Counted from the first letter of the stretch, positions 26,172 to 42,703 are shown. The stretch is 64,000 nt of DNA from Promethearchaeota archaeon (GCA_016839555.1 JAEOUA010000007.1:96001-160000), one strand, 5' to 3'. Program-made: numbers and translations. Notes: generated by a model not told the origin, from the letters alone.

Positions 26172-27854
26172 ATGAATGAGAAAGCAAAATTCATATTTTG
26201 TACGGGCGGTGTAATGTCAGGCATAGGAAAAGGAGTAGCCACCGCAAGTATAGGTAAAATCCTACAATTTAGAGGATTTAATATTTCTGTTGTTAAAATC
26301 GACCCTTATTTAAATGTAGATCCTGGAACTCTTAACCCTTTAGAGCATGGGGAATGTTTTATTACGGAGGATGTATGGGATTTCAGACCCGTTCCTGATT
26401 CAGATGAAAGAGTTTATAGAATAAGTGAAATTGACCAAGATTTCGGAACTTATGAGAGATTTCTGGGCATCACCATTCACCCTTCAAATAATATTACTTC
26501 CGGTCAGATATATTTATCAACCATTCTAAGAGAACGAAAAGGGCGGTTTCTTGGAAGAACCGTTCAGTTAATACCACATGTTACGGATATGATTAAAAGT
26601 CGATTATCTGAAATTGCTCAAAAGGAAGACTTGGATGTTCTTTTAGTAGAATGCGGAGGTACAGTAGGTGATTTAGAGTCAAGTATATTTTTAGAAAGCT
26701 TTCGACAACTGCGATTAGAATTGCCAAAAAATAAAACCGCATTTGTTCACGTCACCCTTGTTCCATATTCCAAAGCAGTTGGTCAACAAAAATCGAAACC
26801 GACTCAACATTCAGTTAAAATGCTGCAAAGCGCTGGACTCCAGCCAGATATTATTATTGGAAGGAGTGAAAAGCCATTAGAAGAAGATATCAGAAATAAA
26901 ATCTCCTTATTTTCAAATGTTCCAAAAGAAGCAGTTATTTCAAATCCAGATTTAGAAAATATATATGAGTTACCTTTATTATTTGAAGAACAAAATCTGG
27001 GGGATCTATTATGCGAAATATTAGATCTAAAAGCAAAATTAGTGTCTTATAGTGAAATTACCAATTTTTCTGAATGGAAAAAGACTGTCAAATTATTTAA
27101 TGAAGCAGTTAAGCCAGTTAAAATTGGGATGCCTGGGAAATATTTCAATATTACAGATTCCTATATCTCGATAAATGATGCATTAGAACATGCCGCGGTC
27201 CATCAAGGTTATAAAACAGACCTTAAAATGATTAATATTGATGAAACTACTAATATAAGCGAAGAATTAAAAGATTGCGATGGGATTCTACTTACACCCG
27301 GATTTGGAGAGAGAGCAGTAGAGGGTATGATTAGTGCTGCTGAATACGCGATGGAAAATAAAATACCTTTCCTTGGTATTTGCTTTGGGGCTCAATTGTT
27401 TTGGATTGCTTTTTGTAGAAAATATTTAGGATTAGAGGCAGCAAACTCTACAGAAATCAACAAAGATACTCCTTATCCAGTCGTGGATTTATTAGAAAGT
27501 CAAAAACATGTGACTGAAAAAGGAGGCACAATGAGATTAGGCGGATTAGATGTATATTTACGAGAAAATACAAAATTATTTGAGGCTTATGGAGAAAAAA
27601 TCATTAGGGAACGATTTCGTCATAGATATCATATCAATTCTAACTATATTAACGAAGAAGCCAGGGAAAAAGGAATGATTGTTTCCAGTACTGATGAGAC
27701 AGGAAAAATTATCAATAGTATTGAGCTTAATCGTCCCGATCACTGGATGGTAGGCACGCAATTTCATCCAGAATTTAAATCTGCTCCTTTTAAACCTTCT
27801 CCGGTATATTCAGCGTTCATTAAAGAAGCAATAAAATATAAAAATAATAAATAA
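26172..27854 (+). CDS. pyrG: CTP synthase
   Basis: GGVMSGIGKG, KIDPYLNVDPGT, GGTVGD, KPTQHSV, GICFG, ERFRHRY, QFHPEF. Confidence 0.96.
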   Translation: MNEKAKFIFCTGGVMSGIGKGVATASIGKILQFRGFNISVVKIDPYLNVDPGTLNPLEHGECFITEDVWDFRPVPDSDERVYRISEIDQDFGTYERFLGITIHPSNNITSGQIYLSTILRERKGRFLGRTVQLIPHVTDMIKSRLSEIAQKEDLDVLLVECGGTVGDLESSIFLESFRQLRLELPKNKTAFVHVTLVPYSKAVGQQKSKPTQHSVKMLQSAGLQPDIIIGRSEKPLEEDIRNKISLFSNVPKEAVISNPDLENIYELPLLFEEQNLGDLLCEILDLKAKLVSYSEITNFSEWKKTVKLFNEAVKPVKIGMPGKYFNITDSYISINDALEHAAVHQGYKTDLKMINIDETTNISEELKDCDGILLTPGFGERAVEGMISAAEYAMENKIPFLGICFGAQLFWIAFCRKYLGLEAANSTEINKDTPYPVVDLLESQKHVTEKGGTMRLGGLDVYLRENTKLFEAYGEKIIRERFRHRYHINSNYINEEAREKGMIVSSTDETGKIINSIELNRPDHWMVGTQFHPEFKSAPFKPSPVYSAFIKEAIKYKNNK

Positions 27855-30114: not shown

Positions 30115-31380
30115 ATGCGAGAAATTAGGTATAATTTAGACTCCGCAATTGAACTTGCAGAAGAATTTACAACTCATAAAATTAATGAACATAACCTAAT
30201 TATTTTACCAAATAGACCAACTTGGATGGTTTTATCTGACAGAGAATTTACAATTTTCAATAAATTAATAAAAAGCAATACTCTTAGAAGCGTTTTAGAT
30301 ACATATTCCGAAAAAGAAGTTTATTCTGTTCTTTTAAAAATTGAGCAAGCGCATTTCTATAAAGATGATATATCAGCTGAAATAGATTTTCTTCCCCCTG
30401 AACTTGTGCTTAATTTAACTAATCAATGTAATTTAAGATGTGTTCATTGCTATTCTAATTCAGGGAAGAAGGAACAAGATGAACTGACAACTCAACAATG
30501 GCTAGATATTATAGACCAATATTCTACATTTGTATCTAATGGTTCGGTCACTTTAACTGGTGGAGAACCTACCCTTTTTCCAGATTTATTAACAATTTTA
30601 AAGAAATTAAAATCTAAAAATCATGAGACTGTTTTATTTTCAAATGGAACAACAAATGGAGGAAAATTTGGATGGGATAAATTATGTGAATATCTTGATT
30701 ATGTACAATTTAGTTTTGATGGATTTACCCCAGAAATTCATGATAGAATACGCGGTCCAGGTGCCTTCAATAAAGTTTTAGGAGCTTTGAAAATAGTTTA
30801 TAAATTAGATAAACCTCTTCGAATTGGAATAAGTCTAATGCCACAAAACATAGATTCAATTGTCTTAAATTTAAAAAAATTCTTAATAAAATATGATCCG
30901 GACAAAAAAATTGGGTTGATCCTTACACCAACTGTAACATTGGGAAGAAATAAAGGGGAGTATTCCATTACATTTAGAGAAGTATTTTCAAAGGTAAGAG
31001 ATGTATTAACTGAGATTTGGAATGTAGGATGGAAAATACCAAAGATTTTCAAAAAAAATGTTCGCAGAACACGATGTGGAATTGGAACCTCAATTTCAAT
31101 AACATCAACTGGAGGACTTAAACCTTGTGTCTTTTCTAAACCTACAGGACATATATTAGAAGATAAATTAATTGATTGGCATTATTGTATGCTAGAAAAG
31201 TATTCAAAAGTAAGTGTTGATAATTATGAGCAATGTAAAAACTGCGATTTAAAATATATTTGCTCTGGGGGATGTGTATTATTTTTTGAACATAGAAAGA
31301 GATGTTCTACAGATTTAGAAGAAAATAAGAAAATAAAAAAATATTTTTACGAGAGACTTATCCACGAAACCTTTATATAA
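30115..31380 (+). CDS. Radical SAM/SPASM peptide maturase with N-terminal RRE/PqqD-like domain
   Basis: CNLRCVHC, TGGEPTL, SFDG...HDRIRG; SPASM CGIG...GGLKPC and CKNCDLKYICSGGC...C; ~90-aa N-terminal beta-then-helical extension. Confidence 0.88.
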   Translation: MREIRYNLDSAIELAEEFTTHKINEHNLIILPNRPTWMVLSDREFTIFNKLIKSNTLRSVLDTYSEKEVYSVLLKIEQAHFYKDDISAEIDFLPPELVLNLTNQCNLRCVHCYSNSGKKEQDELTTQQWLDIIDQYSTFVSNGSVTLTGGEPTLFPDLLTILKKLKSKNHETVLFSNGTTNGGKFGWDKLCEYLDYVQFSFDGFTPEIHDRIRGPGAFNKVLGALKIVYKLDKPLRIGISLMPQNIDSIVLNLKKFLIKYDPDKKIGLILTPTVTLGRNKGEYSITFREVFSKVRDVLTEIWNVGWKIPKIFKKNVRRTRCGIGTSISITSTGGLKPCVFSKPTGHILEDKLIDWHYCMLEKYSKVSVDNYEQCKNCDLKYICSGGCVLFFEHRKRCSTDLEENKKIKKYFYERLIHETFI

Positions 31381-31462
31381 GCCAAATCTTTTTTTAAAAC
31401 ATCAAAATAATTCTTCAATCTTTAATATTATTTAAATTTTTAGTATAAAAAGGGGTGATTTT

Positions 31463-31609
31463 ATGGTAAAATATAAAAAAACTGACACAGATTTTGTTAT
31501 TAAAGTTCCAGAAGATAATGAAATGAGTCAAAAAGAAGCCTTTAATGGAGTAAATATTGGTATGTGTTATATTAAAGTCCATAACCTATGTTCTGAAACC
31601 AAAGTATAG
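31463..31609 (+). CDS. Unannotated 48-aa peptide, candidate RiPP precursor: MVKYKKTDTDFVIKVPEDNEMSQKEAFNGVNIGMCYIKVHNLCSETKV
   Basis: Hand translation; strong AGGGGTGAT RBS at 31451-31459; 82-bp gap after the rSAM gene, same strand; charged leader-like N-half, two Cys in the C-terminal part. Confidence 0.72.
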   Translation: MVKYKKTDTDFVIKVPEDNEMSQKEAFNGVNIGMCYIKVHNLCSETKV

Positions 31610-31721
31610 AGTTTAATTCAACTACCAAAATAAATTTTAGAGAGTGTTATTGAATAATAATCTCAGAATTTTTTATTGATTAATTTTAATATTAATTAGA
31701 AATTTAAAATCTAAGCGTGAT

Positions 31722-33182
31722 TTATTTTTCAATTTTATGCATTATTTCTTTTATTTTTGCCTTTTCAGTAGTATCGGAGATTTTTTGAAGATGCTTCCTT
31801 AAAAATCTTCTAAATTTTCTTAATATTGAAGGATTATCTTCACTTAAATTAATTTTCTCATTAGGGTCACTCTTTAAGTCGAATATGTATTCTTTATTTG
31901 ATTGCTCATCAAAAATATATTTCCAATTATTTTTTCTTATTGAAATCAATTTAAATCCATCATTTTCATTTATTCTTATTTCACCATTTTTTTGATATCC
32001 TTCAGAGATGATAAAATCGTCTCTATTAATTGATTTTCCTTTAAGTAATGGTAAGAGGCTTTTACCTTGAAAAAATTTGGGAATTTCTAAATCAAAATAA
32101 TCTAATATCGTGGGAGCAATATCAATTAATTGTACTTGTTCCTCAACATATTTCACATTCTCTTTTTTACCCAACTCAATGATGATAAGAGGAATCTTTA
32201 GAATTTCATCGAAAATATTTCCAGTATGATGTAATAATTCATGCTCATAAAATGCTTCTCCATGATCTGAGGTAATTATAATCAAGCAGTTTTTTTTAAA
32301 AAGAGAATAAATTGTTTTAAAAATTTTTAATAAATATTTATCTACAAAATTTATTTCTCCATCATATAAATCAATCAAATTATTCAGGATTTCTTTATTT
32401 ATATGATATCTCCTAAAATTCATAAGAAATTTAGTATTTAATAACTCTTTTTCTCTTAAATTAATATTTTCTCTTCTAAATCTTAATAGGTTTCTTTTTG
32501 GTGGATTATAAGGATTATGTACATCCATGAAATGAGCACATAAAAACATATTTTTATTATATTTTTTTAAAAAATTAATAACTTTTCTTGAAATCAAAGG
32601 TGCATTATATTCAAGTGTTATGTATGGAATTAATATTTCAATTAATTTGTACATTCTAAATACTATCCAATTTCTTATTGTATCAAAACCTATTAAACAT
32701 TTTTTAATTTTTTCTAAAATTTTTTGATAATTTATAATTTTTTTTATATTTGAAAAAGCTGATATTTTAAGAGATTCATTTTTATTGAGTTTTTTTCGAG
32801 TTTGTGAAAATTTACTTAATTGTCCTTCAAAAAAAATATCAAAACCCCGATCATAATTGTAATGCTTTCCTAAAAAGGGGTTATCATGTATGAAATAAGT
32901 TAAAATATTATTTTTCTTTAAAATTTCTTGAAATGTCTTTTTTTGAGTAGGTAAAGGGGCATAACCTCCCCTTAAAAAAGGGAATATTGAAGAAAAAATG
33001 GCTGAAAATGAAGATGGTGAATCTATTCCGTTTGTATATGCATTTAAAAAAATTGTACCTTGGTTGATAAAAGATTCTAAATTTGGAGCCGTATTTCTAT
33101 AATATCCATAGCATTTTAAGCTGTCTCTTCTTAAAGCATCAATTGTAATAAGAATTACTCTTTTATTTGTTAATTTATTCAT
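31722..33182 (-). CDS. Sulfatase-like (alkaline phosphatase superfamily) hydrolase/transferase
   Basis: LITIDALRRD, HFMDVHNPY, YDGEI, TSDHGE, DIAPTILD, DLKSDPNE; no (C/S)xPxR formylglycine motif (DSPSSF instead). Confidence 0.85.
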   Translation of the reverse strand: MNKLTNKRVILITIDALRRDSLKCYGYYRNTAPNLESFINQGTIFLNAYTNGIDSPSSFSAIFSSIFPFLRGGYAPLPTQKKTFQEILKKNNILTYFIHDNPFLGKHYNYDRGFDIFFEGQLSKFSQTRKKLNKNESLKISAFSNIKKIINYQKILEKIKKCLIGFDTIRNWIVFRMYKLIEILIPYITLEYNAPLISRKVINFLKKYNKNMFLCAHFMDVHNPYNPPKRNLLRFRRENINLREKELLNTKFLMNFRRYHINKEILNNLIDLYDGEINFVDKYLLKIFKTIYSLFKKNCLIIITSDHGEAFYEHELLHHTGNIFDEILKIPLIIIELGKKENVKYVEEQVQLIDIAPTILDYFDLEIPKFFQGKSLLPLLKGKSINRDDFIISEGYQKNGEIRINENDGFKLISIRKNNWKYIFDEQSNKEYIFDLKSDPNEKINLSEDNPSILRKFRRFLRKHLQKISDTTEKAKIKEIMHKIEK

Positions 33183-33402
33183 TGATTTATCAATTTATTT
33201 CAAGGAATTAAATAAATACCTAATTCATCTAATAATTAAAGACTTGATATACGAAAATAATTTTAAGAAAACATTAATTTAAACTTTTTTAAGAATTTTT
33301 GTTTTTAGAAAAAGAGTTTCTACTTAAATTTTATAAAAAATTACAAAAAAATTTTAGAAATCAATAATTACTTAATTAAATAGGTAAAATACGAAAGCAA
33401 CA

Positions 33403-34536
33403 ATGGAATATAAGAATGAAAAACCCGCTATACTAATGCTAAAAGATGGCCGATATTTTAAGGGTATCGGGTTCGGTGCAACTAAAATTGTTACAGGAGA
33501 ATTAGTATTTACAACAATAACTGGCGCAGGATATAATGAAACGCTCACAGATCCCTCCTATCAAGGTCAAATTGTTATTATGACTCATCCTTTAGTGGGA
33601 AACTATGGTGTACCTTCATGGGAGAAAGATGAATATGGGTTAATAAAATATTTTGAATCTGAATCTATTAAAGTAAGTGGATTTGTTGTAAATGAATGTT
33701 GTAAGCATCCCCATCATTATAAAAGCGTAAAAAATTTGGATCAATTTCTCACAGAAGAAGATATTCCAGGAATTGAATGGATGGATACGCGTGCTATCAC
33801 GAAAATCTTACGAGAAGAAGGAGTGCAAGTCGGATTATTAGCTGTTTTTAATCCTGGAAAAAAACCTAATATTGAAGAATTAAGAGAAATGGTAAAAGAG
33901 GCAGAAGATCCAAATCTAAGAAAATTAGCTGGTGAAGTCTCTGTTAAAAAAATTAAAAAATATTCACCAGTCAACCCTCGAGGAAGAGTGGTAATTTTAG
34001 ATTTAGGTGTGAAATATAGTATTATACGAAATTTATTAAAAAGAAATATAGAAGTAATTCTCGTACCATATGACTATACTTATGAGCAAATAATGAAATA
34101 TAGTCCTAATGGAGTAATTATATCAAATGGTCCGGGAGATCCCAAATTATATTATAATGCCATAGAAGTAAGTACAAGGTTGATGGAGGATGATATACCA
34201 ACCTTCGGAATATGTTTAGGAAACCAAATAATAGGCTTAGCTGCGGGGGGAACTTCCTATAAATTAAAATACGGGCATCGGGGCGGGAACAAAACCGTTA
34301 TAAATCCAGAAACAAGACGTTGCTATATTACCTCTCAAAATCATGGATATTGCGTAAAAGATTTTGAAGCAGGGGGTTTTATAGAATTTTTAAAAAACAT
34401 AGATGATGACTCAAATGAGGGAATTATTCATGAACGAAAACCAATTTTTGCGGTTCAATTTCATCCTGAAGCCTCGCCAGGTCCTCTAGATTCTATATAT
34501 TTATTTGATAAATTTATTGAATTGATGGAGATCTGA
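33403..34536 (+). CDS. carA: Carbamoyl-phosphate synthase small (glutaminase) subunit, intact triad
   Basis: TDPSY, SNGPGDP, GICLGNQ (Cys), SQNHGY, QFHPEA (His, Glu). Confidence 0.96.
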   Translation: MEYKNEKPAILMLKDGRYFKGIGFGATKIVTGELVFTTITGAGYNETLTDPSYQGQIVIMTHPLVGNYGVPSWEKDEYGLIKYFESESIKVSGFVVNECCKHPHHYKSVKNLDQFLTEEDIPGIEWMDTRAITKILREEGVQVGLLAVFNPGKKPNIEELREMVKEAEDPNLRKLAGEVSVKKIKKYSPVNPRGRVVILDLGVKYSIIRNLLKRNIEVILVPYDYTYEQIMKYSPNGVIISNGPGDPKLYYNAIEVSTRLMEDDIPTFGICLGNQIIGLAAGGTSYKLKYGHRGGNKTVINPETRRCYITSQNHGYCVKDFEAGGFIEFLKNIDDDSNEGIIHERKPIFAVQFHPEASPGPLDSIYLFDKFIELMEI

Positions 34537-34540
34537 TATC

Positions 34541-37500
34541 ATGCCTTTTGATAAATCCATTAAAAAAGCCTTAGTTTTAGGGAGTGGAGGTATTCGAATT
34601 GGCCAAGCAGGTGAATTTGACTACTCGGGTTCCCAAGTTTTAAAAGCCTTAAAAGAAGAGGGAATAGAAACTATCCTTATTAACCCAAATATTGCAACAA
34701 TTCAAACAGATCCTCAATTATCTGATAGAGTATATTTATTACCTATTAATGTTAAATATGTAGAAAAAGTTATCAAAAAGGAACGTCCTGACGGAATTCT
34801 TCTCTCATTTGGAGGACAAACAGCTCTTAATGTTGGAGTAGAACTCCAAGAATTAGGAATATTGGAAAAATATAATGTCCGTGTTTTAGGAACTCCTATT
34901 GAGGCAATCGAGGCGACAGAAGATAGGGATTTATTTGTAAAAGCAATGAATAAATCTAATGCCCCCGTGTGTAAAAGTAAGGCCGTCAATTCATATAATG
35001 AAGCAATTAAAACAGTGGAGGAATTTGGTTTTCCTTTAATGATAAGGGTAGCCTATACTTTAGGAGGAAGAGGTTCTGGTATTGTTTCTGATATCAAAGA
35101 ATTTGAAAAAATGGCAAGAAGAGGATTGGCACAATCCAGAATAAATCAAATACTTATTGAGGAGAGTGTATGGGGCTGGAAAGAAATTGAATATGAAGTT
35201 GTCCGTGATGCAGCAGATAATTGTTTTATAAATTGCAATATGGAGAATTTTGATCCTGTAGGTGTGCACACCGGGGAATCAATTGTCGTAGCCCCTTCTC
35301 AGACTCTTACTAATGAAGAATATCAAATGCTCCGTTCCGCGTCAATACGAATTATTAGAAATTTAGGGATTATTGGAGAATGTAATATTCAATATGCCCT
35401 TCATCCAAAAAGTAATGAATTTAGAGTAATTGAAGTAAATGCCCGTCTTTCAAGATCTTCCGCTTTAGCTTCAAAAGCGACGGGATATCCTTTAGCTTAT
35501 ATAGCTGCGAAATTAGCAATTGGATATCAACTTCCGGAATTGAAAAATAAAATTACAGGTAAAACGACCGCGTGTTTTGAACCCGCGTTAGATTATCTTG
35601 TCTTGAAAATTCCGCGCTGGGATATGACCAAATTTCAAAGAGTTGACCGTCATATCGGCAGTCAAATGAAGTCAGTCGGCGAAGTGATGGCTATTGGACG
35701 CACCTTCGAGGAAGTATTACAGAAGGCTGTCCGAATGCTCGATATTGGTATGAAAGGAATGGTTTCGAATGATTTAGAGCCAATTGAAGACCTTAATGAA
35801 TTAAAATATAACCTAAGAAATCCCACCGATTTACGAGTTTTTCGCTTGATTGAGGCTATTAAGAGAGGATTAGATCTCGATGAGATTTATAACCTTTCAA
35901 GAGTCGATAAATGGTTCCTCTATAAATTGCAAAATATTATTAATATTGAACGCCAGATTGAATCTTTAGATCTTTTAAAGTCTTCTGACTCTCAAAAAAA
36001 ATATATACTTAAAAGAGCAAAACGTTTTGGCTTTTCGGATGGACAAATCGCTAAAATTATGGGAATAGATACCATTCAAATACGTAATTTGCGCAGACGC
36101 TTCAACATTACTCCTTGCGTAAAACGAATTGATACCTTGGCAGCGGAATGGCCTGCTATCACTAATTATTTGTATCTTACTTATGCAGGTTTGGAGCATG
36201 ATATTGACTATGAACAAGAGGCTAGAAAGAATTTGCAAAAAATCATCGTGCTTGGAAGTGGTACATATCGAATTGGGGCGAGTGTTGAATTTGATTGGGG
36301 TTCTGTAAATTGCCTATGGGGTTTAAAAAAGCAAGATGTTGATCAAGCTATTATTATTAATTATAACCCAGAGACGGTTAGTACCGATTATGATATCAGC
36401 GATAAACTTTATTTCGAAGAGCTTTCGGGTGAGAGGGTATTAGATATATGTGAGTTAGAAAATCCCTATGGTATTATTGTTTCAGTAGGAGGGCAAATCG
36501 CAAATAACCTTGCCGCCAAATTCTCTAAGTATAGTGAGTTTTTTAGGAAAGTTGGTATTAATATCTTAGGGACTCACGGCTCTCGTATTGATATGGCGGA
36601 AGATCGTAGTAAATTTAGTAATTTGTTAGACCAATTGAATATCGGACAACCCCAATGGAAAACTTTGACCAATAAAGCGGAAGCGATAGATTTTTCTAAA
36701 GATGTGGGTTATCCCGTTCTCGTGCGCCCTTCCTATGTATTGAGCGGAGCTGCTATGAGAGTCTGTTATGATCAAAAGACATTGCAAGACACTTTAGATC
36801 TCGCCGCTTCCGTATCGAGTGAGTATCCCGTGGTAATTACCAAATTCTTTACTGATGCCCGTGAAGTAGAATGCGATGGAGTGTGCGATGGAGAAGAGGT
36901 GCTTATTGGAGCAATTGTGGAGCATATAGAAAATGCTGGAATTCATTCTGGAGATGCTACAATGGCAATCCCTCCTCAAACCATCTCAAATGAGGTGATT
37001 GAGATAATCAAAAAATACACAAAACAGATCGCTTTAGCACTTAAAATAAAAGGTCCTTTCAATGTTCAATATTTAGTAAAGAATGGGGGCGTCTATGTTA
37101 TCGAATGTAATCTCCGTTCAAGCCGCAGCATGCCTTATGTATCTAAAACCCGCGGCATTAACTTAATGCGAATCGCGGCAGAAATCTTCATGGGAAAGAA
37201 AATCCCCAAGCGATTATTAGATTTATCCTATGGGGATTATATCTCAGTAAAAGCTCCCATGTTTTCCTTCATGCGATTAGATAAAGCCGACCCAATTCTT
37301 GGCGTCGAGATGAATTCAACGGGGGAATGTGCGAGTTTTGGCGATACTTTTCCGGAAGCATTAGTAAAAGCAATTGAATCAACTGGTAGAAATATTCCGA
37401 TTTACGGGGGGAACGTCCTAATTTCAGTAGGCGGAGAGGAATTAAAGAAAAAAATTATCCCCTTAGCACAGAAATTAAGAAATATGGGCTTTACCATTTT

Positions 37501-37852
37501 TGCTACGGAGGATACTGCGTTAGCAATGAAAAAAAACGGGATATTCGCCGTCAAGCTGTATAAAATCTATGAATACGGAAAGGAGCCGAACATTGTGAGT
37601 TGCCTAGAAAATGCTGCTATAGACCTCGTTATAAATATCCCACTTCCAACAACCGTGGAAGAAAAATTCAGGCAAATTATGGAGGATGAGTATGTAATCA
37701 GGCGGAAGGCAGTTGATTTTAATATTCCTGTGATTACGAACTTTGAGTTGGGAGCCGCACTAGTAGACGCTATAGAAGAATTGCGCCATAAAGAAATCTC
37801 TATTAAATCTTTAAATGAATACCATAAAACCCTAAAAGAAGTTTATTGGTAG
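34541..37852 (+). CDS. carB: Carbamoyl-phosphate synthase large subunit (copy 1)
   Basis: IGQAGEFDYSG, EVNARLSRSSALASKATGYP, NPETVSTDYD, RPSYVLSG, two ATP-grasp halves plus MGS domain. Confidence 0.96.
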   Translation: MPFDKSIKKALVLGSGGIRIGQAGEFDYSGSQVLKALKEEGIETILINPNIATIQTDPQLSDRVYLLPINVKYVEKVIKKERPDGILLSFGGQTALNVGVELQELGILEKYNVRVLGTPIEAIEATEDRDLFVKAMNKSNAPVCKSKAVNSYNEAIKTVEEFGFPLMIRVAYTLGGRGSGIVSDIKEFEKMARRGLAQSRINQILIEESVWGWKEIEYEVVRDAADNCFINCNMENFDPVGVHTGESIVVAPSQTLTNEEYQMLRSASIRIIRNLGIIGECNIQYALHPKSNEFRVIEVNARLSRSSALASKATGYPLAYIAAKLAIGYQLPELKNKITGKTTACFEPALDYLVLKIPRWDMTKFQRVDRHIGSQMKSVGEVMAIGRTFEEVLQKAVRMLDIGMKGMVSNDLEPIEDLNELKYNLRNPTDLRVFRLIEAIKRGLDLDEIYNLSRVDKWFLYKLQNIINIERQIESLDLLKSSDSQKKYILKRAKRFGFSDGQIAKIMGIDTIQIRNLRRRFNITPCVKRIDTLAAEWPAITNYLYLTYAGLEHDIDYEQEARKNLQKIIVLGSGTYRIGASVEFDWGSVNCLWGLKKQDVDQAIIINYNPETVSTDYDISDKLYFEELSGERVLDICELENPYGIIVSVGGQIANNLAAKFSKYSEFFRKVGINILGTHGSRIDMAEDRSKFSNLLDQLNIGQPQWKTLTNKAEAIDFSKDVGYPVLVRPSYVLSGAAMRVCYDQKTLQDTLDLAASVSSEYPVVITKFFTDAREVECDGVCDGEEVLIGAIVEHIENAGIHSGDATMAIPPQTISNEVIEIIKKYTKQIALALKIKGPFNVQYLVKNGGVYVIECNLRSSRSMPYVSKTRGINLMRIAAEIFMGKKIPKRLLDLSYGDYISVKAPMFSFMRLDKADPILGVEMNSTGECASFGDTFPEALVKAIESTGRNIPIYGGNVLISVGGEELKKKIIPLAQKLRNMGFTIFATEDTALAMKKNGIFAVKLYKIYEYGKEPNIVSCLENAAIDLVINIPLPTTVEEKFRQIMEDEYVIRRKAVDFNIPVITNFELGAALVDAIEELRHKEISIKSLNEYHKTLKEVYW

Positions 37853-37928
37853 ATCTAATTTATACTCAAATTATTAGAAAATTTTGGACCACTATTCTTT
37901 TAAATATTTGTATTTAGTTTTTTAATAT

Positions 37929-38087
37929 ATGGCAATATCAACTAATAATAGGTATAGAAGTTGCGTTGACTGCGACCATTATAATGAGGAGAGGCAATAT
38001 TGTGAATACTTTAAGAGAAAGCTCTCTCCACACTGTTATTGTTTAGTAGACGGAAATATGGTTTATTTCCTTAAAAACAATAACTAA
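37929..38087 (+). CDS. Unannotated 52-aa Cys-rich protein: MAISTNNRYRSCVDCDHYNEERQYCEYFKRKLSPHCYCLVDGNMVYFLKNNN
   Basis: Hand translation; CxxC-x9-C-x10-CxC; TTTTAAATA box at 37898-37906 (leaderless spacing); T-tract right after the stop; more GC-rich than the flanks. Confidence 0.62.
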   Translation: MAISTNNRYRSCVDCDHYNEERQYCEYFKRKLSPHCYCLVDGNMVYFLKNNN

Positions 38088-38252
38088 TCGTTTTTTTTCT
38101 CTCTTATTCTCGATCTTTTTATTCTATTTAATTAAAACATTTTTTATTTTACTGATATTATTTTTGAGAAGATAATTATATTAATTAAATTAGTAAAATT
38201 AGATATACAAAATATATTAAATAGTAAACAAAGCCGTATAAATGTAAATACA

Positions 38253-39392
38253 ATGATTTATAAAACTGAAAAACCAGCTATTTTGATGTTAGATAGTGGG
38301 CTATATTTTAAGGGAATTGGTTTTGGCGCCGTTAAAAAAGTATCTGGTGAAATCATATTTAATACAATACCAGGTTCGGGTTATGTTGAATTATTAACTA
38401 ATCCCACAAATAAAGGAAAAATTATAGTATGTACATACCCCTCCATCGGTAACTACGGGGTTCCCGCAAAATTGAGAGATGAATATGGGATATTAAAACA
38501 GTTTGAATCAGACTCAATTCATATAAATGGACTCGTAATCAGCGAATATTGTGATACACCGAGTCATTATGAAAGTATCAAAACCTTAGAGGAATGGCTT
38601 ATAGAGGAGGATATTCCTGCTATACAATGGGTAGATACGAGAAGGTTAACCCAATATCTCGTTCAAAATAAAACCTCTATGGGGATTTTACAAGTTTTTG
38701 ATCAAAATAGCAAACCAAATATTCAAGCTTTACGAGAAGAAGCAAAAAAATTAAAGAATTTAAATAAAAGAAATTTAGTAGAAGTGGTTTCCACCAAAAA
38801 AGTGAAAACTTATTCTTGTGAAAATAGTAAGGCAACAGTTCTCATTATTGATTTAGGAGTGAAAAACGGTATTTTAAGGGTTCTTCTCAAAAAAAAGATG
38901 GATATCGTTATAGTTCCCCATAATTTTTACTATAATAATATAATGGAGTTAAGGCCTGATGGAATTTTGATTTCAAATGGACCAGGGAATCCGAAAATAT
39001 ATTCTGAAATCGTGAACTTAATCGAAAAACTTCTAAATACAGAAACTCCAATGATGGGAATAGGATTGGGTCATATTTTAATTGGATTAGCGGCAGGTGC
39101 AGAAGTCTATAAGATGAAAGCCCCTCATAGAGGGGGAAGAACAACTGTGAAAAACTCAACAAATCAATGTTATATAACTTACCAAAATCATGGCTATTGT
39201 TTAAAAAGTTTAAAAGAAAATGGTTTTTCAGAATACTTTCATGATAAGGATGATGGATCGAATGAAGGGCTGATTCATAAAAATAAATCAATTTTTTCAG
39301 TTTTATTTAATCCAGAAGGATCCCCTGGGCCATTAGATGTGAGGGATATCATATTTGATAAATTTATAGAATCAATCAAGGTGAAGAAATAA
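38253..39392 (+). CDS. carA: Carbamoyl-phosphate synthase small subunit homolog, glutaminase-inactive
   Basis: Full-length CarA paralog, but nucleophile GICLG reads GIGLG and QFHPE reads LFNPE; stop overlaps the carB2 ATG (TAATG). Confidence 0.9.
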   Translation: MIYKTEKPAILMLDSGLYFKGIGFGAVKKVSGEIIFNTIPGSGYVELLTNPTNKGKIIVCTYPSIGNYGVPAKLRDEYGILKQFESDSIHINGLVISEYCDTPSHYESIKTLEEWLIEEDIPAIQWVDTRRLTQYLVQNKTSMGILQVFDQNSKPNIQALREEAKKLKNLNKRNLVEVVSTKKVKTYSCENSKATVLIIDLGVKNGILRVLLKKKMDIVIVPHNFYYNNIMELRPDGILISNGPGNPKIYSEIVNLIEKLLNTETPMMGIGLGHILIGLAAGAEVYKMKAPHRGGRTTVKNSTNQCYITYQNHGYCLKSLKENGFSEYFHDKDDGSNEGLIHKNKSIFSVLFNPEGSPGPLDVRDIIFDKFIESIKVKK

Positions 39393-42300
39393 TGCCCTTG
39401 GATAAATCAATCAAGAAAGTTCTCGTTTTAGGCTCTGGGGCAGTCAGAATCGGACAAGCAGGAGAATTTGACTATTCTGGTTCTCAAGTACTTAAAGCAT
39501 TAAATGAGGAGGGTATTGAAACAATTCTCGTGAATCCTAATATTGCCACAATCCAAACAGATCCTCAAATGTCTGATAAAGTTTACTTGGTTCCAATAAA
39601 TGTTAAATATGTTGAGGAAATTATTGAAAAAGAACGACCGGATGGAATCTGTCTTTCTTTTGGTGGGCAAACAGGATTAAATGTGGGAGTAGAATTAAAA
39701 GAAGCGGGAATTTTAGATAAATATAATGTGAGAGTTTTTGGAACACCAATTAAAGCTATTGAAGCTACTGAAGATCGTGATTTATTTGTAAAAGCGATGA
39801 ATGAAGCTAATTGCCCCGTATGTAAAAGCAAAGCGGTAACAAGTTATAAGGAGGCAAAACAAGTAGTTGAAAAATTTGGATTTCCTCTTATGCTGAGAGT
39901 GGCTTATGTTCTTGGAGGGAGAGGCTCTGGAATAATCCACAATATGAAGGAATTTGAACGAAAAGCAAAAGTTGGCTTGGCTCAATCAAGAATTAATCAA
40001 ATTTTAATTGAGGAATCAGTATGGGGCTGGAAAGAAATAGAATTTGAAATTCTTAGGGATGCGGATGATAATTGCTTTATTAATTGCTCTATGGAAAACG
40101 TTGATCCCTGTGGAATTCACACTGGAGATTCAATTGTAGTCGCTCCCGCTCAAACTCTAACTGATGAAGAATTACAAATGCTTCGTTCAGCATCAATTAG
40201 AGCTACTAAAGCTGTCGGAGTCTGTGGAGAGTGTAATATTCAATGGGCTTTAGATCCTTTCTCTAAAAAATATAGAGCAATTGAGATAAATGCAAGATTA
40301 TCTCGATCTTCCGCATTAGCTTCTAAAGCCACTGGCTATCCATTAGCGTATATTGCTGCGAAAATTGCAGTGGGATATACTTTACCAGAGCTTATAAATC
40401 AAATAACCTTAAAAACCACCGCAAATTTTGAACCCGCCACAGATTATATGGTCTTAAAGTATCCTCGATGGGATTTAACAAAATTTGAAAAGGTTGATAG
40501 ACATATTGGTCCTCAAATGAAAGGCGTAGGGGAATGTATGAGTATTGGAAGGTGCTTTGAAGAGGTATGTCAGAAAGCATTACGCATGTTAGATATTAAT
40601 CTGAAAGGATTTGTTGCAAATGATCTTGAACCGATTGAAGATATAAATGAATTGAAATATGAATTAAGAAATCCCACAGATTTAAGATTCTTAAGAATTA
40701 GTGAAGCAATAAAACGAGGGATTTCTATTGAAGAAATTTATGAACGGTCCAGAATTGATAAATGGTTTCTTCATAAATTAGAAAATATCATTAAAATTGA
40801 GAAGGAATTAGAAAACCTAGACTTTTTACAATCTTCTGATGAAGATAAAGAATATTTATTAACAAGGGCAAAAAGATTTGGTTTTTCTGATGGACAAATT
40901 GGTAAAATCATGGGATTGACTACTCCCGTAATACGAAGATTGCGAAAACGATTAAGAATTGTTCCCTATGTAAAACAAATTGATACATTGGCAGGTCAAA
41001 TTGAACCTGAACGTCATTATTTATACCTTACTTATTGGGGGGATAAACATGATATTGATTTTGAGAAAGAAGAGCAAGAAAATCAAAAAAAAGTGATTGT
41101 CTTAGGTTCAGGAACGTATCGAATAGGCTCCTCTGTTGAATTTGATTGGGGTTGTGTTAATTGTTTGTGGGGTTTACAAGAGCTTGGTGTTGATAAAGCG
41201 ATAATTATTAATTATAATCCTGAGACGGTAAGTACAGATTATGATATTTCTGATCGTCTTTATTTTGAGGAACTTTCAGGGGAACGGGTGCTAGATATCT
41301 GCGAATTAGAAAAACCATATGGAATTGTGCTAAACGCAGGGGGTCAAATCGCCCAAAATCTTGCCGCAAAGTTTGCAAAATATTCAGAGTTTTATCGAAA
41401 AACCAATATAAGGATATTGGGAACGCATGGCTCTCGTATCGATATGGCAGAGGATCGCGTGAAATTCAGTGCCCTCCTTGATGATCTACATATTAATCAA
41501 CCCGAATGGGCAATGCTTACCACTACAGAGGAAGCTATTGAGTTTGCCGAAAAAGTAGGATATCCAGTATTAGTGAGACCTTCTTATGTATTAAGTGGTG
41601 CTGCAATGCGAGTATCTTATGATAAAAAAACCTTAAAAGATACACTTGACTTAGCTGCGGCAGTATCTCGAGAATATCCAGTAATTATAACAAAATTTTT
41701 TACAGATTCAAGAGAGGTGGAATGCGACGGGATTTGCGATGGGGAGAATGTATTGATTGGAGCTATAGTGGAGCACATTGAAAATGCCGGTGTTCATTCT
41801 GGGGACGCCACCATGACAATCCCTCCACAGACTATTTCTAAAAAAATAATAAAACAAATAGAAGAATATACACGAGAAATTGCTTTAGCTTTGAAAATAT
41901 TAGGGCCATTTAATATTCAATATTTAGTAAAGGATGGGGAAGTTTCTGTGATTGAATGTAATTTAAGATCCAGCCGTAGCATGCCGTATGTATCTAAAAC
42001 ACGCGGAATAAATTTAATGAAATTAGCAGCAGAAGTTATAATGGGAAATAAAATACCAAAAAAATTAATAGACCTTCCCTATGGTAATTTTGTGGGAGTA
42101 AAAGCTCCCATGTTTTCATTTATGCGATTGGATAATGCAGATCCCATTTTAGGAGTGGAGATGAACTCTACTGGTGAAGTGGGGGTACTCGGAGATGATT
42201 TCGCAGATGCTTTAATGAAGGCACTTGAAGCTGCCGAAAATAATATACCTATTAAAAATGGAAATGTATTAATTTCAGTGGGAGGAGAGGAGCTTAAGAA

Positions 42301-42703
42301 GAAAATAATCCCTTTAGCAAAAAAATTGAAAAATATGGGATTTACGATCTTTGCGACGGAGGATACTGCTCTGGCTCTTAAAAAGAATGGAATTGATACT
42401 GTAAGATTATATAAAGTACATGAAGTTGGAAAAGAGCCAAATATTATGAAATGTTTACGAAAAGGAGAAATAGATTTAGTAATTAACATCCCCTTACCAA
42501 CGACGGTCAAAGAGAAATTTAGGCAAATAATGGAGGATGAATATAAAATTAGACGCCATGCGGTCGATTTTAATATTCCTGTTATCATTAATTTACAACT
42601 TGCCAAATCATTAATTAACGCCATTGAAAAAATGCGTCAAAAACAATTCTCAATTAAGGCTTTAAATGATTACCATAAATCATTAGAAGAAGTGTATTGG
42701 TAA
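39392..42703 (+). CDS. carB: Carbamoyl-phosphate synthase large subunit (copy 2)
   Basis: Same motifs and same 1103-aa length as copy 1. Confidence 0.96.
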   Translation: MPLDKSIKKVLVLGSGAVRIGQAGEFDYSGSQVLKALNEEGIETILVNPNIATIQTDPQMSDKVYLVPINVKYVEEIIEKERPDGICLSFGGQTGLNVGVELKEAGILDKYNVRVFGTPIKAIEATEDRDLFVKAMNEANCPVCKSKAVTSYKEAKQVVEKFGFPLMLRVAYVLGGRGSGIIHNMKEFERKAKVGLAQSRINQILIEESVWGWKEIEFEILRDADDNCFINCSMENVDPCGIHTGDSIVVAPAQTLTDEELQMLRSASIRATKAVGVCGECNIQWALDPFSKKYRAIEINARLSRSSALASKATGYPLAYIAAKIAVGYTLPELINQITLKTTANFEPATDYMVLKYPRWDLTKFEKVDRHIGPQMKGVGECMSIGRCFEEVCQKALRMLDINLKGFVANDLEPIEDINELKYELRNPTDLRFLRISEAIKRGISIEEIYERSRIDKWFLHKLENIIKIEKELENLDFLQSSDEDKEYLLTRAKRFGFSDGQIGKIMGLTTPVIRRLRKRLRIVPYVKQIDTLAGQIEPERHYLYLTYWGDKHDIDFEKEEQENQKKVIVLGSGTYRIGSSVEFDWGCVNCLWGLQELGVDKAIIINYNPETVSTDYDISDRLYFEELSGERVLDICELEKPYGIVLNAGGQIAQNLAAKFAKYSEFYRKTNIRILGTHGSRIDMAEDRVKFSALLDDLHINQPEWAMLTTTEEAIEFAEKVGYPVLVRPSYVLSGAAMRVSYDKKTLKDTLDLAAAVSREYPVIITKFFTDSREVECDGICDGENVLIGAIVEHIENAGVHSGDATMTIPPQTISKKIIKQIEEYTREIALALKILGPFNIQYLVKDGEVSVIECNLRSSRSMPYVSKTRGINLMKLAAEVIMGNKIPKKLIDLPYGNFVGVKAPMFSFMRLDNADPILGVEMNSTGEVGVLGDDFADALMKALEAAENNIPIKNGNVLISVGGEELKKKIIPLAKKLKNMGFTIFATEDTALALKKNGIDTVRLYKVHEVGKEPNIMKCLRKGEIDLVINIPLPTTVKEKFRQIMEDEYKIRRHAVDFNIPVIINLQLAKSLINAIEKMRQKQFSIKALNDYHKSLEEVYW

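What the first reader, a model, noticed from the sequence alone, without database searches (positions are those of the whole stretch)
33403..42703. Two tandem carbamoyl-phosphate synthetases, the second with a glutaminase-dead small subunit (ammonia-only CPS)
Seen: carA1-carB1 and carA2-carB2 are adjacent. Both CarB are 1103 aa and closely similar, suggesting a local duplication. CarA2 is full length and translationally coupled to carB2, yet has lost the nucleophile (GICLGNQ to GIGLGHI), the catalytic His (QFHPE to LFNPE) and the TDPSY motif (TNPTN). Known: vertebrate mitochondrial CPS1 has a Cys-to-Ser dead glutaminase domain and uses free ammonia. Inference: a convergent glutamine-using / ammonia-using CPS pair, switched by nitrogen status or split between pyrimidine and arginine supply. 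Amt-GlnK and GOGAT lie nearby.
Basis: partly seen in the sequence, partly recalled or inferred. Interest (0 to 1): 0.75.

Follow-up and report, generated by a model that had tools for sequence, protein, structure and literature searches.

The report
Second CPS with dead glutaminase subunit
This Loki-type Asgard archaeon carries, next to its normal carbamoyl-phosphate synthetase, an old and well-conserved second copy whose small subunit can no longer split glutamine; it most likely uses free ammonia, as the animal urea-cycle enzyme does, and in some relatives it has replaced the normal enzyme.

Summary
carA1-carB1 (33403-37852) and carA2-carB2 (38253-42703) lie in tandem. CarA2 is full length and its stop overlaps the carB2 start. 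It has Gly for the nucleophile Cys, Asn for the catalytic His and Ile for the glutamine-binding Gln.

This is not decay. All 105 CarA2-type protein clusters found carry Gly plus Asn, and all CarA1 types carry Cys plus His. CarA2 dN/dS is 0.11-0.15 and CarB2 is 0.04-0.05. CarA2 and CarB2 each form one clade that arose by one old duplication inside a Loki-type Asgard family.

Four species genomes have only the dead-glutaminase pair and still keep aspartate and ornithine carbamoyltransferases. In those genomes carA2 sits behind the carA1-type promoter. One CarA is an A1/A2 chimera, which points to unequal crossing-over. This replacement happened at least twice.

The best reading is an ammonia-dependent CPS, functionally convergent with vertebrate CPS1. 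No enzyme assay exists. A nitrogen-status switch is plausible (the two operons have different promoters) but untested. An arginine/pyrimidine split by allostery is not supported.

This scan noted the same thing before in at least six other Loki-type genomes and in gut bacteria. I found no paper that describes it.

The parts
33300..33402 (+). carA1 upstream region with the carA1-type promoter block (A-run followed by TTTTAGAAATC at 33346-33362)
   Evidence: The block is aligned by eye across 16 carA1 upstream regions of the family. GTTAATAA lies at -76 to -88 in 10 of them; the window's own copy is a diverged version. Exact position. Promoter function is inferred.
33403..34536 (+). carA1, canonical glutamine-hydrolysing CPS small subunit (377 aa)
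   Evidence: TIGR01368 418 bits against a cut-off of 307. It keeps GICLGNQ, QFHPE and TDPSY.
34541..37852 (+). carB1, CPS large subunit (1103 aa)
   Evidence: TIGR01369 1472 bits against a cut-off of 1027. It scores 1134 bits to human CPS1 and 919 to E. coli CarB.
37929..38087 (+). 52-aa Cys-rich ORF in the carB1-carA2 spacer (probably not part of the system)
   Evidence: Read; no Pfam hit. In relatives the same spacer is 100-240 bp in seven tandem loci and 1.3-1.7 kb, holding unrelated genes, in two; whether the ORF recurs there was not searched.
38165..38252 (+). carA2 upstream region with the carA2-type promoter block (GATAATTATAT ... AATTAG ... TAGATATA)
   Evidence: A block ATTGAnTGRTTATTATAT, then about 10 nt, then TTTAATTAGTTATAT, recurs before carA2 in most of the 13 two-CPS genomes compared. 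It is absent before carA1. Function is inferred.
38253..39392 (+). carA2, pseudo-glutaminase small subunit (379 aa): Gly271 for E. coli Cys269, Asn353 for His353, Ile275 for Gln273
   Evidence: TIGR01368 353 bits, still above the cut-off. AlphaFold2 pLDDT 91.8. TM-score 0.90 to E. coli CarA. dN/dS 0.11-0.15.
39392..42703 (+). carB2, CPS large subunit paralog (1103 aa); its start overlaps the carA2 stop
   Evidence: TIGR01369 1416 bits. It is 76% identical to CarB1. dN/dS 0.04-0.05. Within-clade conservation equals that of CarB1 in all four domains. 27 of 36 clade-fixed differences lie in residues 1-404.

Best explanation
CarA2-CarB2 is a working carbamoyl-phosphate synthetase that takes free ammonia instead of glutamine. 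CarB2 carries out the normal chemistry: bicarbonate plus ATP gives carboxyphosphate, ammonia converts it to carbamate, and a second ATP gives carbamoyl phosphate. CarA2 is a pseudo-enzyme. It has lost both glutamine hydrolysis and glutamine binding, but it is kept as the obligatory structural partner of CarB2. It may also serve as the entry funnel and first half of the ammonia tunnel. The pair arose by one duplication of carAB early in a Loki-type Asgard family and has been inherited vertically since. In this genome it works beside the glutamine-dependent CarA1-CarB1, under a different promoter. The likely benefit is that carbamoyl phosphate can be made without spending the extra ATP that glutamine synthetase costs when ammonium is plentiful, as it is in anoxic sediment. 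Shown here: the loss of the catalytic and binding residues, their fixation, purifying selection, vertical descent, sole-copy status in some genomes and the promoter difference. Inferred: ammonia as the substrate, the entry route, the ATP-saving rationale and regulation by nitrogen status.
For: 1. The active site is dismantled. Cys to Gly and His to Asn occur in all 105 CarA2-type clusters. The Gln273 equivalent is never Gln. Residues that are invariant in CarA1 and that I recall as glutamine-binding in E. coli (Ser of TDPSY, Gln273, Gly313, the Gln before FHPE) are variable in CarA2.
2. The protein is kept. dN/dS is 0.11-0.15 at dS 0.55-0.9. All 22 loci hold a CarA2-type gene; one is interrupted only by a scaffold gap. 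The fold is confident. The segment 341-360, which holds the Pro358-Gly359 tunnel residues, is as conserved as in CarA1.
3. CarB2 is fully constrained: dN/dS is 0.04-0.05 and its entropy equals that of CarB1 in every domain. The ammonia gate residues Cys232, Ala251 and Ala314 are present in both paralogs (residue list from PMC4655335).
4. Clade-fixed CarB1/CarB2 differences concentrate in the carboxyphosphate domain, which uses ammonia and contacts CarA: 27 of 36, binomial p = 3e-6.
5. CarA2 and CarB2 are single clades (SH-aLRT 100), and the CarB2 branching order largely mirrors that of CarB1.
6. Four species genomes have only the A2B2 pair yet keep ATCase and OTCase. The dN/dS values of point 2 include pairs within these genomes.
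7. In those genomes carA2 lies behind the carA1-type promoter at the same distance. One CarA is an A1/A2 chimera. The four genomes are not one clade on the CarB2 tree (AU p = 0.0003), so the replacement happened at least twice.
8. From my own knowledge, not retrieved: E. coli Cys269 and His353 mutants lose glutamine use but keep ammonia-dependent synthesis. Structures of such mutants are in the PDB (1c30 C269S; 1a9x, whose chain reads NPE). PMC4655335 states that E. coli variants with a blocked or perforated tunnel stay normally active with external ammonia.
Against: No enzyme assay exists and no expression data could be found. The four A2B2-only genomes also carry a carbamate kinase next to their OTCase. 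That kinase could in principle supply carbamoyl phosphate, so 'sole source' is not proven. I found no residue change that would by itself raise affinity for ammonia. The role of the invariant Gly and Asn is unexplained if the pocket is merely dead. Position 310 (E. coli Ala309, a tunnel-lining residue by my recollection) is a bulky Phe or Tyr in most CarA2, which might obstruct rather than open the old tunnel.
Confidence: 0.75

Rival explanations
1. The second pair is a decaying or non-functional duplicate: a pseudogene in slow motion.
For: CarA2 evolves about twice as fast as CarA1. Orthologs are 54-62% identical against 72-84% for CarA1, and site entropy is 1.7 times higher.
Against: Every CarA2-type locus holds an open frame; the one apparent break is a scaffold gap of N. 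dN/dS is 0.11-0.15 for CarA2 and 0.04-0.05 for CarB2. Gly and Asn are invariant in 105 clusters. The pair is the only CPS in four genomes.
Confidence: 0.02
2. CarB2 still receives enzyme-delivered nitrogen. The source would be CarA1 acting in trans, or another amidohydrolase that docks on CarA2-CarB2, so the enzyme is not a free-ammonia enzyme.
For: In this genome CarA1 is encoded 4 kb upstream. CarA2 is under selection for something more than folding, since Gly271 and Asn353 are invariant.
Against: A2B2-only genomes have no other CarA homolog at E <= 1e-30. Apart from the tandem carA1B1, no neighbouring gene is shared by more than four of the 19 carA2B2 loci compared. carA2 and carB2 are translationally coupled and have co-evolved: the fixed CarB2 changes sit in the domain that contacts CarA.
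Confidence: 0.08
3. The two enzymes are split by pathway (arginine against pyrimidine), as in Bacillus and Lactobacillus. The dead glutaminase would then be incidental to that split.
For: The genome has both ATCase and OTCase. The two operons have different conserved promoter blocks. In the family, genomes with both CPS pairs mostly lack carbamate kinase (1 of 11 has it), whereas single-CPS genomes mostly have it (11 of 13). This hints that carbamoyl-phosphate or arginine economy decides how many CPS pairs are kept.
Against: No clade-fixed difference lies in the allosteric domain, and the effector-site residues aligned to E. coli Thr974, Thr977 and Lys993 are the same in both paralogs. Neither operon is linked to arg or pyr genes in any locus inspected. 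Either pair can be the one that is lost (A1-only and A2-only genomes both exist), which argues for overlapping rather than dedicated roles. This rival is also compatible with ammonia use.
Confidence: 0.12
4. CarA2 is a ligand-sensing regulatory subunit. For example it would bind glutamine without hydrolysing it and so tune CarB2.
For: Pseudo-enzymes often become regulators. Gly271 and Asn353 are invariant.
Against: The pocket residues that bind glutamine in E. coli CarA differ freely among CarA2 orthologs (TDPSY loop, Gln273, Gly313 equivalents). A conserved ligand site is therefore unlikely.
Confidence: 0.03

Closest known systems
Vertebrate mitochondrial CPS I (human CPS1, EC 6.3.4.16; PDB 5DOT, 5DOU, 6UEL)
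   Same: It retains a full-length glutaminase-like module that is catalytically dead, and it uses free ammonia. The Gln273 equivalent is also lost. The gate residues Cys, Ala, Ala are kept. The predicted CarA2 fold matches the CPS1 N-terminal moiety with TM-score 0.89.
   Different: CPS1 is one fused polypeptide and needs N-acetylglutamate. It has Ser, not Gly, at the nucleophile and keeps the His. Gln318 blocks its old tunnel (PMC4655335), whereas CarA2 keeps Gly at that place (Gly295, nearly invariant). The Asgard enzyme is a two-subunit enzyme of independent origin: CarA1/CarB1 are even closer to CPS1 than CarA2/CarB2 are.
E. coli CarAB laboratory mutants at Cys269 and His353 of the small subunit (PDB 1c30 C269S; 1a9x, whose chain reads NPE at the triad)
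   Same: The same two positions are hit. By my recollection of the Lusty and Raushel work (not retrieved), such mutants lose glutamine-dependent synthesis and keep ammonia-dependent synthesis. The fold match has TM-score 0.90.
   Different: Those are single engineered changes in a glutamine enzyme. Here both changes, plus loss of the binding residues, are fixed in nature in more than 100 sequence clusters and are accompanied by fixed changes in the partner CarB2.
Bacteroides thetaiotaomicron orphan CarB2 beside a canonical CarAB in the high-affinity ammonium locus (PMC8121099)
   Same: A prokaryote holds a glutamine-dependent CPS plus a second one proposed to be ammonium-dependent and used when ammonium is high.
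   Different: The Bacteroides CarB2 has no small subunit at all. The Asgard enzyme keeps a conserved pseudo-glutaminase partner. Neither has been confirmed biochemically.
Arginine-specific and pyrimidine-specific CPS pairs of Bacillus subtilis and Lactobacillus plantarum (my own knowledge)
   Same: Two complete carA-carB type operons sit in one prokaryotic genome under separate control.
   Different: In those bacteria both small subunits are active glutaminases and the operons sit in arg and pyr clusters. Here one glutaminase is dead and there is no arg or pyr linkage.
Carbamate-kinase-type 'CPS' of Pyrococcus and Thermococcus (PMC6022934)
   Same: An archaeal, ammonia-dependent route to carbamoyl phosphate.
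   Different: That is an unrelated fold (amino-acid kinase), uses one ATP and is reversible. The present enzyme is a true ATP-grasp CPS.

Membership tests
CPS small subunit, CarA (NCBIfam TIGR01368 / PF00988 + PF00117) | Whole-protein score above the curated cut-off | tested here: met
   CarA2 scores 353.3 bits against a cut-off of 307.35; CarA1 scores 418.4.
CPS small subunit, CarA (NCBIfam TIGR01368 / PF00988 + PF00117) | Two-domain CarA fold (N-terminal CarB-binding domain plus class I amidotransferase domain) | tested here: met
   AlphaFold2 pLDDT 91.8 and pTM 0.92. Foldseek TM-score 0.90 to E. coli CarA over the full length.
Glutamine-hydrolysing CPS (EC 6.3.5.5), the name the databases give CarA2 | Cys-His-Glu catalytic triad of the class I amidotransferase | tested here: not met
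   Gly271 stands for Cys269 and Asn353 for His353; only the Glu is kept. This holds in 105 of 105 CarA2-type clusters.
Glutamine-hydrolysing CPS (EC 6.3.5.5), the name the databases give CarA2 | Conserved glutamine-binding residues (E. coli Ser47, Gln273, Gly313; residue list from my own knowledge) | tested here: not met
   These positions are invariant in CarA1 and variable in CarA2.
CPS large subunit, CarB (NCBIfam TIGR01369) | Whole-protein score above the cut-off, all four domains present | tested here: met
   CarB2 scores 1415.6 bits against a cut-off of 1027 and aligns over residues 4-1077. It is gap-free against CarB1.
CPS large subunit, CarB (NCBIfam TIGR01369) | Ammonia gate Cys232, Ala251, Ala314 (E. 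coli numbering; list from PMC4655335) | tested here: met
   INC(232)SMEN, VVA(251)PAQ and SKA(313)TG are present in CarB2 and CarB1 (gate residues).
Ammonia-dependent CPS I (EC 6.3.4.16) | Uses free ammonia, not glutamine | not testable with these tools
   Inferred from the dead site and from sole-copy genomes. No assay exists.
Ammonia-dependent CPS I (EC 6.3.4.16) | Small and large moieties fused in one polypeptide | tested here: not met
   They are two genes: a stop codon ends carA2 and overlaps the carB2 start.
Ammonia-dependent CPS I (EC 6.3.4.16) | N-acetylglutamate site in the C-terminal domain (human Thr1391, Thr1394, Trp1410; list from my own knowledge) | tested here: inconclusive
   The two Thr are aligned with Thr, and Trp1410 with Lys as in E. 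coli Lys993. CarB1 and CarB2 do not differ here. This looks nucleotide-type rather than NAG-type, but it was read from one alignment only.
Ammonia-dependent CPS I (EC 6.3.4.16) | Common descent with the vertebrate CPS I / CPS III lineage | tested here: not met
   CarA2 and CarB2 are nested inside one Asgard family. CarA1 and CarB1 score higher to human CPS1 than CarA2 and CarB2 do.

The most novel reading that the evidence does not exclude
The dead small subunit is not a mere scaffold. With the Cys side chain removed (invariant Gly), the His replaced by an invariant Asn and the glutamine-binding residues gone, the emptied pocket would serve as an open funnel. Ammonia from the solvent would pass through it into the ancestral tunnel, whose lining (Gly295, Asn312, Pro358, Gly359) stays conserved. 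That would be a different structural solution from CPS1, which blocks the old tunnel and uses a side entrance. The two operons would then form a nitrogen-status switch that saves one ATP per carbamoyl phosphate in energy-starved sediment archaea. Unequal crossing-over between the tandem carA genes has repeatedly turned the ammonia enzyme into the only, housekeeping CPS.
Probability: 0.3. Interest if true: 0.72.

Novelty: new variant of a known kind. Interest (0 to 1): 0.6.

Why it matters
Textbooks and a recent paper (PMC8121099) hold that prokaryotic ATP-grasp CPS enzymes are glutamine-dependent, and that ammonia-dependent carbamoyl-phosphate synthesis in archaea rests on carbamate-kinase-type enzymes.

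Here a two-subunit CPS with a fixed pseudo-glutaminase partner is conserved in more than 100 sequence clusters of Asgard archaea. In some species it is the only CPS. That would be a natural, independent repeat of the CPS II to CPS I transition that made the vertebrate urea cycle possible.

The system can be tested directly with two closely related enzymes from one genome. The natural A1/A2 chimera and the promoter captures amount to a ready-made evolutionary experiment.

It also matters for annotation. Public records name these proteins 'glutamine-hydrolyzing', which would mislead metabolic models of Asgard nitrogen and energy budgets.

Tried and rejected
- **Expression.** No RNA holder is listed for the stretch. 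DNA holders are marine-sediment and marsh metagenomes. I did not lay reads.
- **Broken carA2 in a relative.** The 204 + 90 aa fragments in L059 looked like a pseudogene but are a scaffold gap of N.
- **Conserved neighbours.** Clustering the flanking ORFs of 19 loci gave nothing shared beyond the tandem itself. A 300-360 aa ORF without a Pfam hit precedes carA2 only in the four A2-only genomes.
- **Shared regulator sites.** I looked for the carA1 and carA2 upstream blocks elsewhere in the window. The carA2 block gave chance-level hits. The second exact copy of the carA1 17-mer lies inside a histidine-kinase coding region and is a coincidence.
- **Classical arginine deiminase pathway as the reason for carbamate kinase.** arcA was not found in any of the 41 genomes searched.
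- **Residue lists for the E. coli ammonia tunnel.** The two Raushel/Holden papers I asked for are not held. Tunnel-lining lists other than the gate and Gly293 therefore rest on my memory and are marked as such.
- **Literature.** Five searches found no paper on a dead CarA in archaea.
- **CarA1 serving CarB2 in trans.** Rejected because the A2-only genomes lack any CarA1.

Full report
**What is there.** The window is contig 6, bases 96001-160000, of a 3.74-Mb MAG with about 30% G+C. Its relatives carry titles such as Promethearchaeota, Promethearchaeia and Lokiarchaeota archaeon, so this is a Loki-type Asgard archaeon from marine sediment or marsh. Four ORFs lie on the plus strand: carA1 33403-34536, carB1 34541-37852, carA2 38253-39392 and carB2 39392-42703. 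All four pass the curated NCBIfam thresholds for the CPS small and large subunits. The genome holds no further CarA. CarA1 and CarA2 are 51% identical; CarB1 and CarB2 are 76% identical without a gap. The carA2 stop overlaps the carB2 start (TAATG). carA1 and carB1 are four bases apart.

**The dead site.** I aligned CarA2 to E. coli CarA. It has Gly271 for the nucleophile Cys269, Ile275 for Gln273 and Asn353 for His353; Glu355 is kept. CarA1 keeps all of these. One PDB chain that aligns, 1a9x_B, itself reads NPE at the triad. Its entry is titled 'caught in the act of glutamine hydrolysis'. 1c30 is the C269S mutant. By my own recollection of that literature, such mutants lose glutamine use and keep ammonia-dependent synthesis. 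PMC4655335 states that E. coli variants with a blocked or perforated tunnel remain normally active with external ammonia.

**Fixed, not decaying.**
- A search of 41 related genomes found a CarA2-type gene in 10 genomes of at least seven genera of the window's family. It lies in tandem with carA1B1 in seven of them.
- A scan of one genome per GTDB species added more, all Asgard.
- In the 5.8-billion-protein collection, 105 of the 121 sequences examined (the 119 best hits plus the window's CarA1 and CarA2) are CarA2 types. Every one has Gly plus Asn. The other 16 are CarA1 types with Cys plus His. No mixed state exists, and the Gln273 equivalent is never Gln in CarA2.
- NG86 dN/dS for CarA2 is 0.11-0.15 where dS is 0.55-0.9. 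The values are 0.04-0.05 for CarB2 and 0.04-0.09 for CarA1.
- The only apparent break, in L059, is a scaffold gap.
- CarA2 folds with pLDDT 91.8 and superposes on E. coli CarA with TM-score 0.90 and on human CPS1 with 0.89.

**Where constraint is relaxed and where it is kept.** In 12 genomes that hold both paralogs, site entropy of CarA2 is 1.7 times that of CarA1. The excess is concentrated in residues 41-60 (the TDPSY loop), 121-140 and 261-300 (around the nucleophile elbow). Residues 341-360, which hold Pro358 and Gly359, are as conserved as in CarA1. CarA1-invariant positions that become variable in CarA2 include the Ser of TDPSY, Gln275, Gly314 and the Gln before FHPE. By my recollection of the E. 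coli structures, these form the glutamine pocket. This argues against a ligand-sensing pocket. Gly41, Gly295, Asn312, Pro358 and Gly359 stay invariant or nearly so. CPS1 blocks its old tunnel with Gln318 in place of E. coli Gly293; CarA2 keeps Gly there. Position 310 (E. coli Ala309) is Ser in CarA1 but Phe or Tyr in most CarA2. I cannot tell whether this fills the empty pocket or narrows the tunnel.

**The large subunit.** Within its clade, CarB2 is as conserved as CarB1 in all four domains, with entropy ratios of 0.8-1.2. Thirty-six positions are fixed differently in the two clades. Twenty-seven of them lie in residues 1-404, the carboxyphosphate domain that uses ammonia and contacts CarA (binomial p = 3e-6). 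None lies in the allosteric domain. The gate residues Cys232, Ala251 and Ala314 are unchanged. The effector-site residues aligned to E. coli Thr974, Thr977 and Lys993 are the same in both paralogs. There is thus no sign of divergent allosteric control, which weakens an arginine/pyrimidine split of the Bacillus kind.

**History.** CarA2 and CarB2 are each one clade (SH-aLRT 100). Both are nested in the family after one genus (the G013/G023 type) branched off, and the CarB2 branching order largely mirrors that of CarB1. This means one old duplication followed by vertical descent. Both paralog pairs score higher to human CPS1 than to E. coli CPS, and CarA1/CarB1 score higher than CarA2/CarB2: 296 and 1134 bits against 250 and 1042. 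The likeness to CPS1 is therefore a property of the lineage, and the dead site is convergent.

**Natural replacement experiments.**
- Four species genomes (those of L044, L046, L049 and L063) contain only the A2B2 pair: one CarA and one CarB each. They still have an aspartate carbamoyltransferase and an ornithine carbamoyltransferase.
- Their carA2 lies behind the block that otherwise precedes carA1. The block has GTTAATAA at -76 to -78 in three of the four (a variant, CATTAATAA, in L046), then an A-run, then ATTAGnTATCTTTATTTTAAG. The distance is the same as before carA1 in ten other genomes.
- carA2 of two-CPS genomes has a different conserved block: ATTGAnTGRTTATTATAT, about 10 nt, then TTTAATTAGTTATAT.
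- The CarA of L049 is a chimera. The first three of 22 diagnostic columns, as well as FTTITGAGY and TDPSY, are in the CarA1 state. The other 19 columns, including Gly and Asn, are in the CarA2 state. The other three proteins are CarA2-like at all 22 columns.
- On the CarB2 tree the four genomes are not one clade (AU p = 0.0003). One caution: I named the group after seeing the tree.
- The simplest account is unequal crossing-over between the tandem carA genes, at least twice and at different breakpoints. Each event deleted the glutamine enzyme and put the ammonia-type enzyme under the housekeeping promoter.

**Caveat and a side observation.** The four A2-only genomes also encode a carbamate kinase beside their OTCase, so A2B2 is not proven to be their only carbamoyl-phosphate source. 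Across the family, carbamate kinase is found in 1 of 11 genomes with both CPS pairs, 7 of 9 with A1B1 only and 4 of 4 with A2B2 only. Kin are not independent, and no arginine deiminase was found in any of them. The pattern may mean that carbamoyl-phosphate or arginine economy decides how many CPS pairs are kept. I could not resolve it.

**Context in this window.** Among the 18 relatives' loci compared, which hold up to 6 kb on each side, CTP synthase, a sulfatase and the NAD synthase recur at one to three; GOGAT lay outside the stretch compared. The genome has pyrB and argF and no carbamate kinase. The 52-aa Cys-rich ORF in the spacer has no Pfam hit. In relatives the same spacer is 100-240 bp or holds unrelated genes; I did not search them for this ORF.

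**Verdict.** Differential regulation is likely because the promoters differ, but its signal is unknown. The same feature was noted before by this scan in at least six other Loki-type genomes and, of independent origin, in gut Clostridia and Bacteroidales. My tests agree with those notes. They add the promoter capture, the chimera, the twofold replacement and the concentration of CarB2 changes in one domain. I found no publication on it. Public records call these proteins glutamine-hydrolysing.

Noticed in passing
L049:2176-3306 (genome G043): The only CarA of this genome is a natural chimera. About the first 55 residues are CarA1-like (FTTITGAGY, TDPSY). The rest is CarA2-like, including Gly and Asn at the catalytic positions. 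This indicates unequal crossing-over between tandem carA1 and carA2.
   Followed up: yes
Genomes G000-G024 and G041-G045: Carbamate kinase (arcC) is found in 1 of 11 genomes with both CPS pairs and in 11 of 13 genomes with a single CPS pair of either type. It sits next to an OTCase where checked. No arginine deiminase was found in any of the 41 genomes searched.
   Followed up: partly
window 33403-42703 against PDB 5DOT and 1BXR: Both Asgard CPS pairs score clearly higher to human CPS1 than to E. coli CPS (CarB1 1134 against 919 bits; CarA1 296 against 227). The C-terminal domain aligns to near the end of CPS1. The Asgard CPS is of the eukaryote-like type.
   Followed up: partly
window 37929-38087 (+): A 52-aa Cys-rich ORF (CxxC ... 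C ... CxC) lies in the 400-bp spacer between carB1 and carA2. It has no Pfam hit. Relatives' spacers are 100-240 bp or hold unrelated genes; they were not searched for this ORF.
   Followed up: partly
L044:4826-5905, L046:5013-5900, L049:1111-2028, L063:4971-5873: A 295-359 aa ORF without any Pfam hit lies directly upstream of carA2 in all four A2-only genomes and nowhere else among the loci compared.
   Followed up: partly
proteins P0015, P0040, P0053, P0054 and others: Public records name the CarA2-type proteins 'glutamine-hydrolyzing carbamoyl-phosphate synthase small subunit' although they lack the catalytic Cys and His. This is a systematic misannotation.
   Followed up: yes
window 26172-27854; L060:4408-5964; L047:172-1341: Other glutamine amidotransferase genes lie a gene or a few genes upstream of carA1 in several genomes: CTP synthase in the window, L048, L060 and L061, and GMP synthase in L047, L060 and L061. 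This is a loose nucleotide-biosynthesis neighbourhood.
   Followed up: no
window 30115-33182: A radical SAM gene and a sulfatase gene lie directly upstream of carA1. The sulfatase recurs downstream of carB2 in L048.
   Followed up: no
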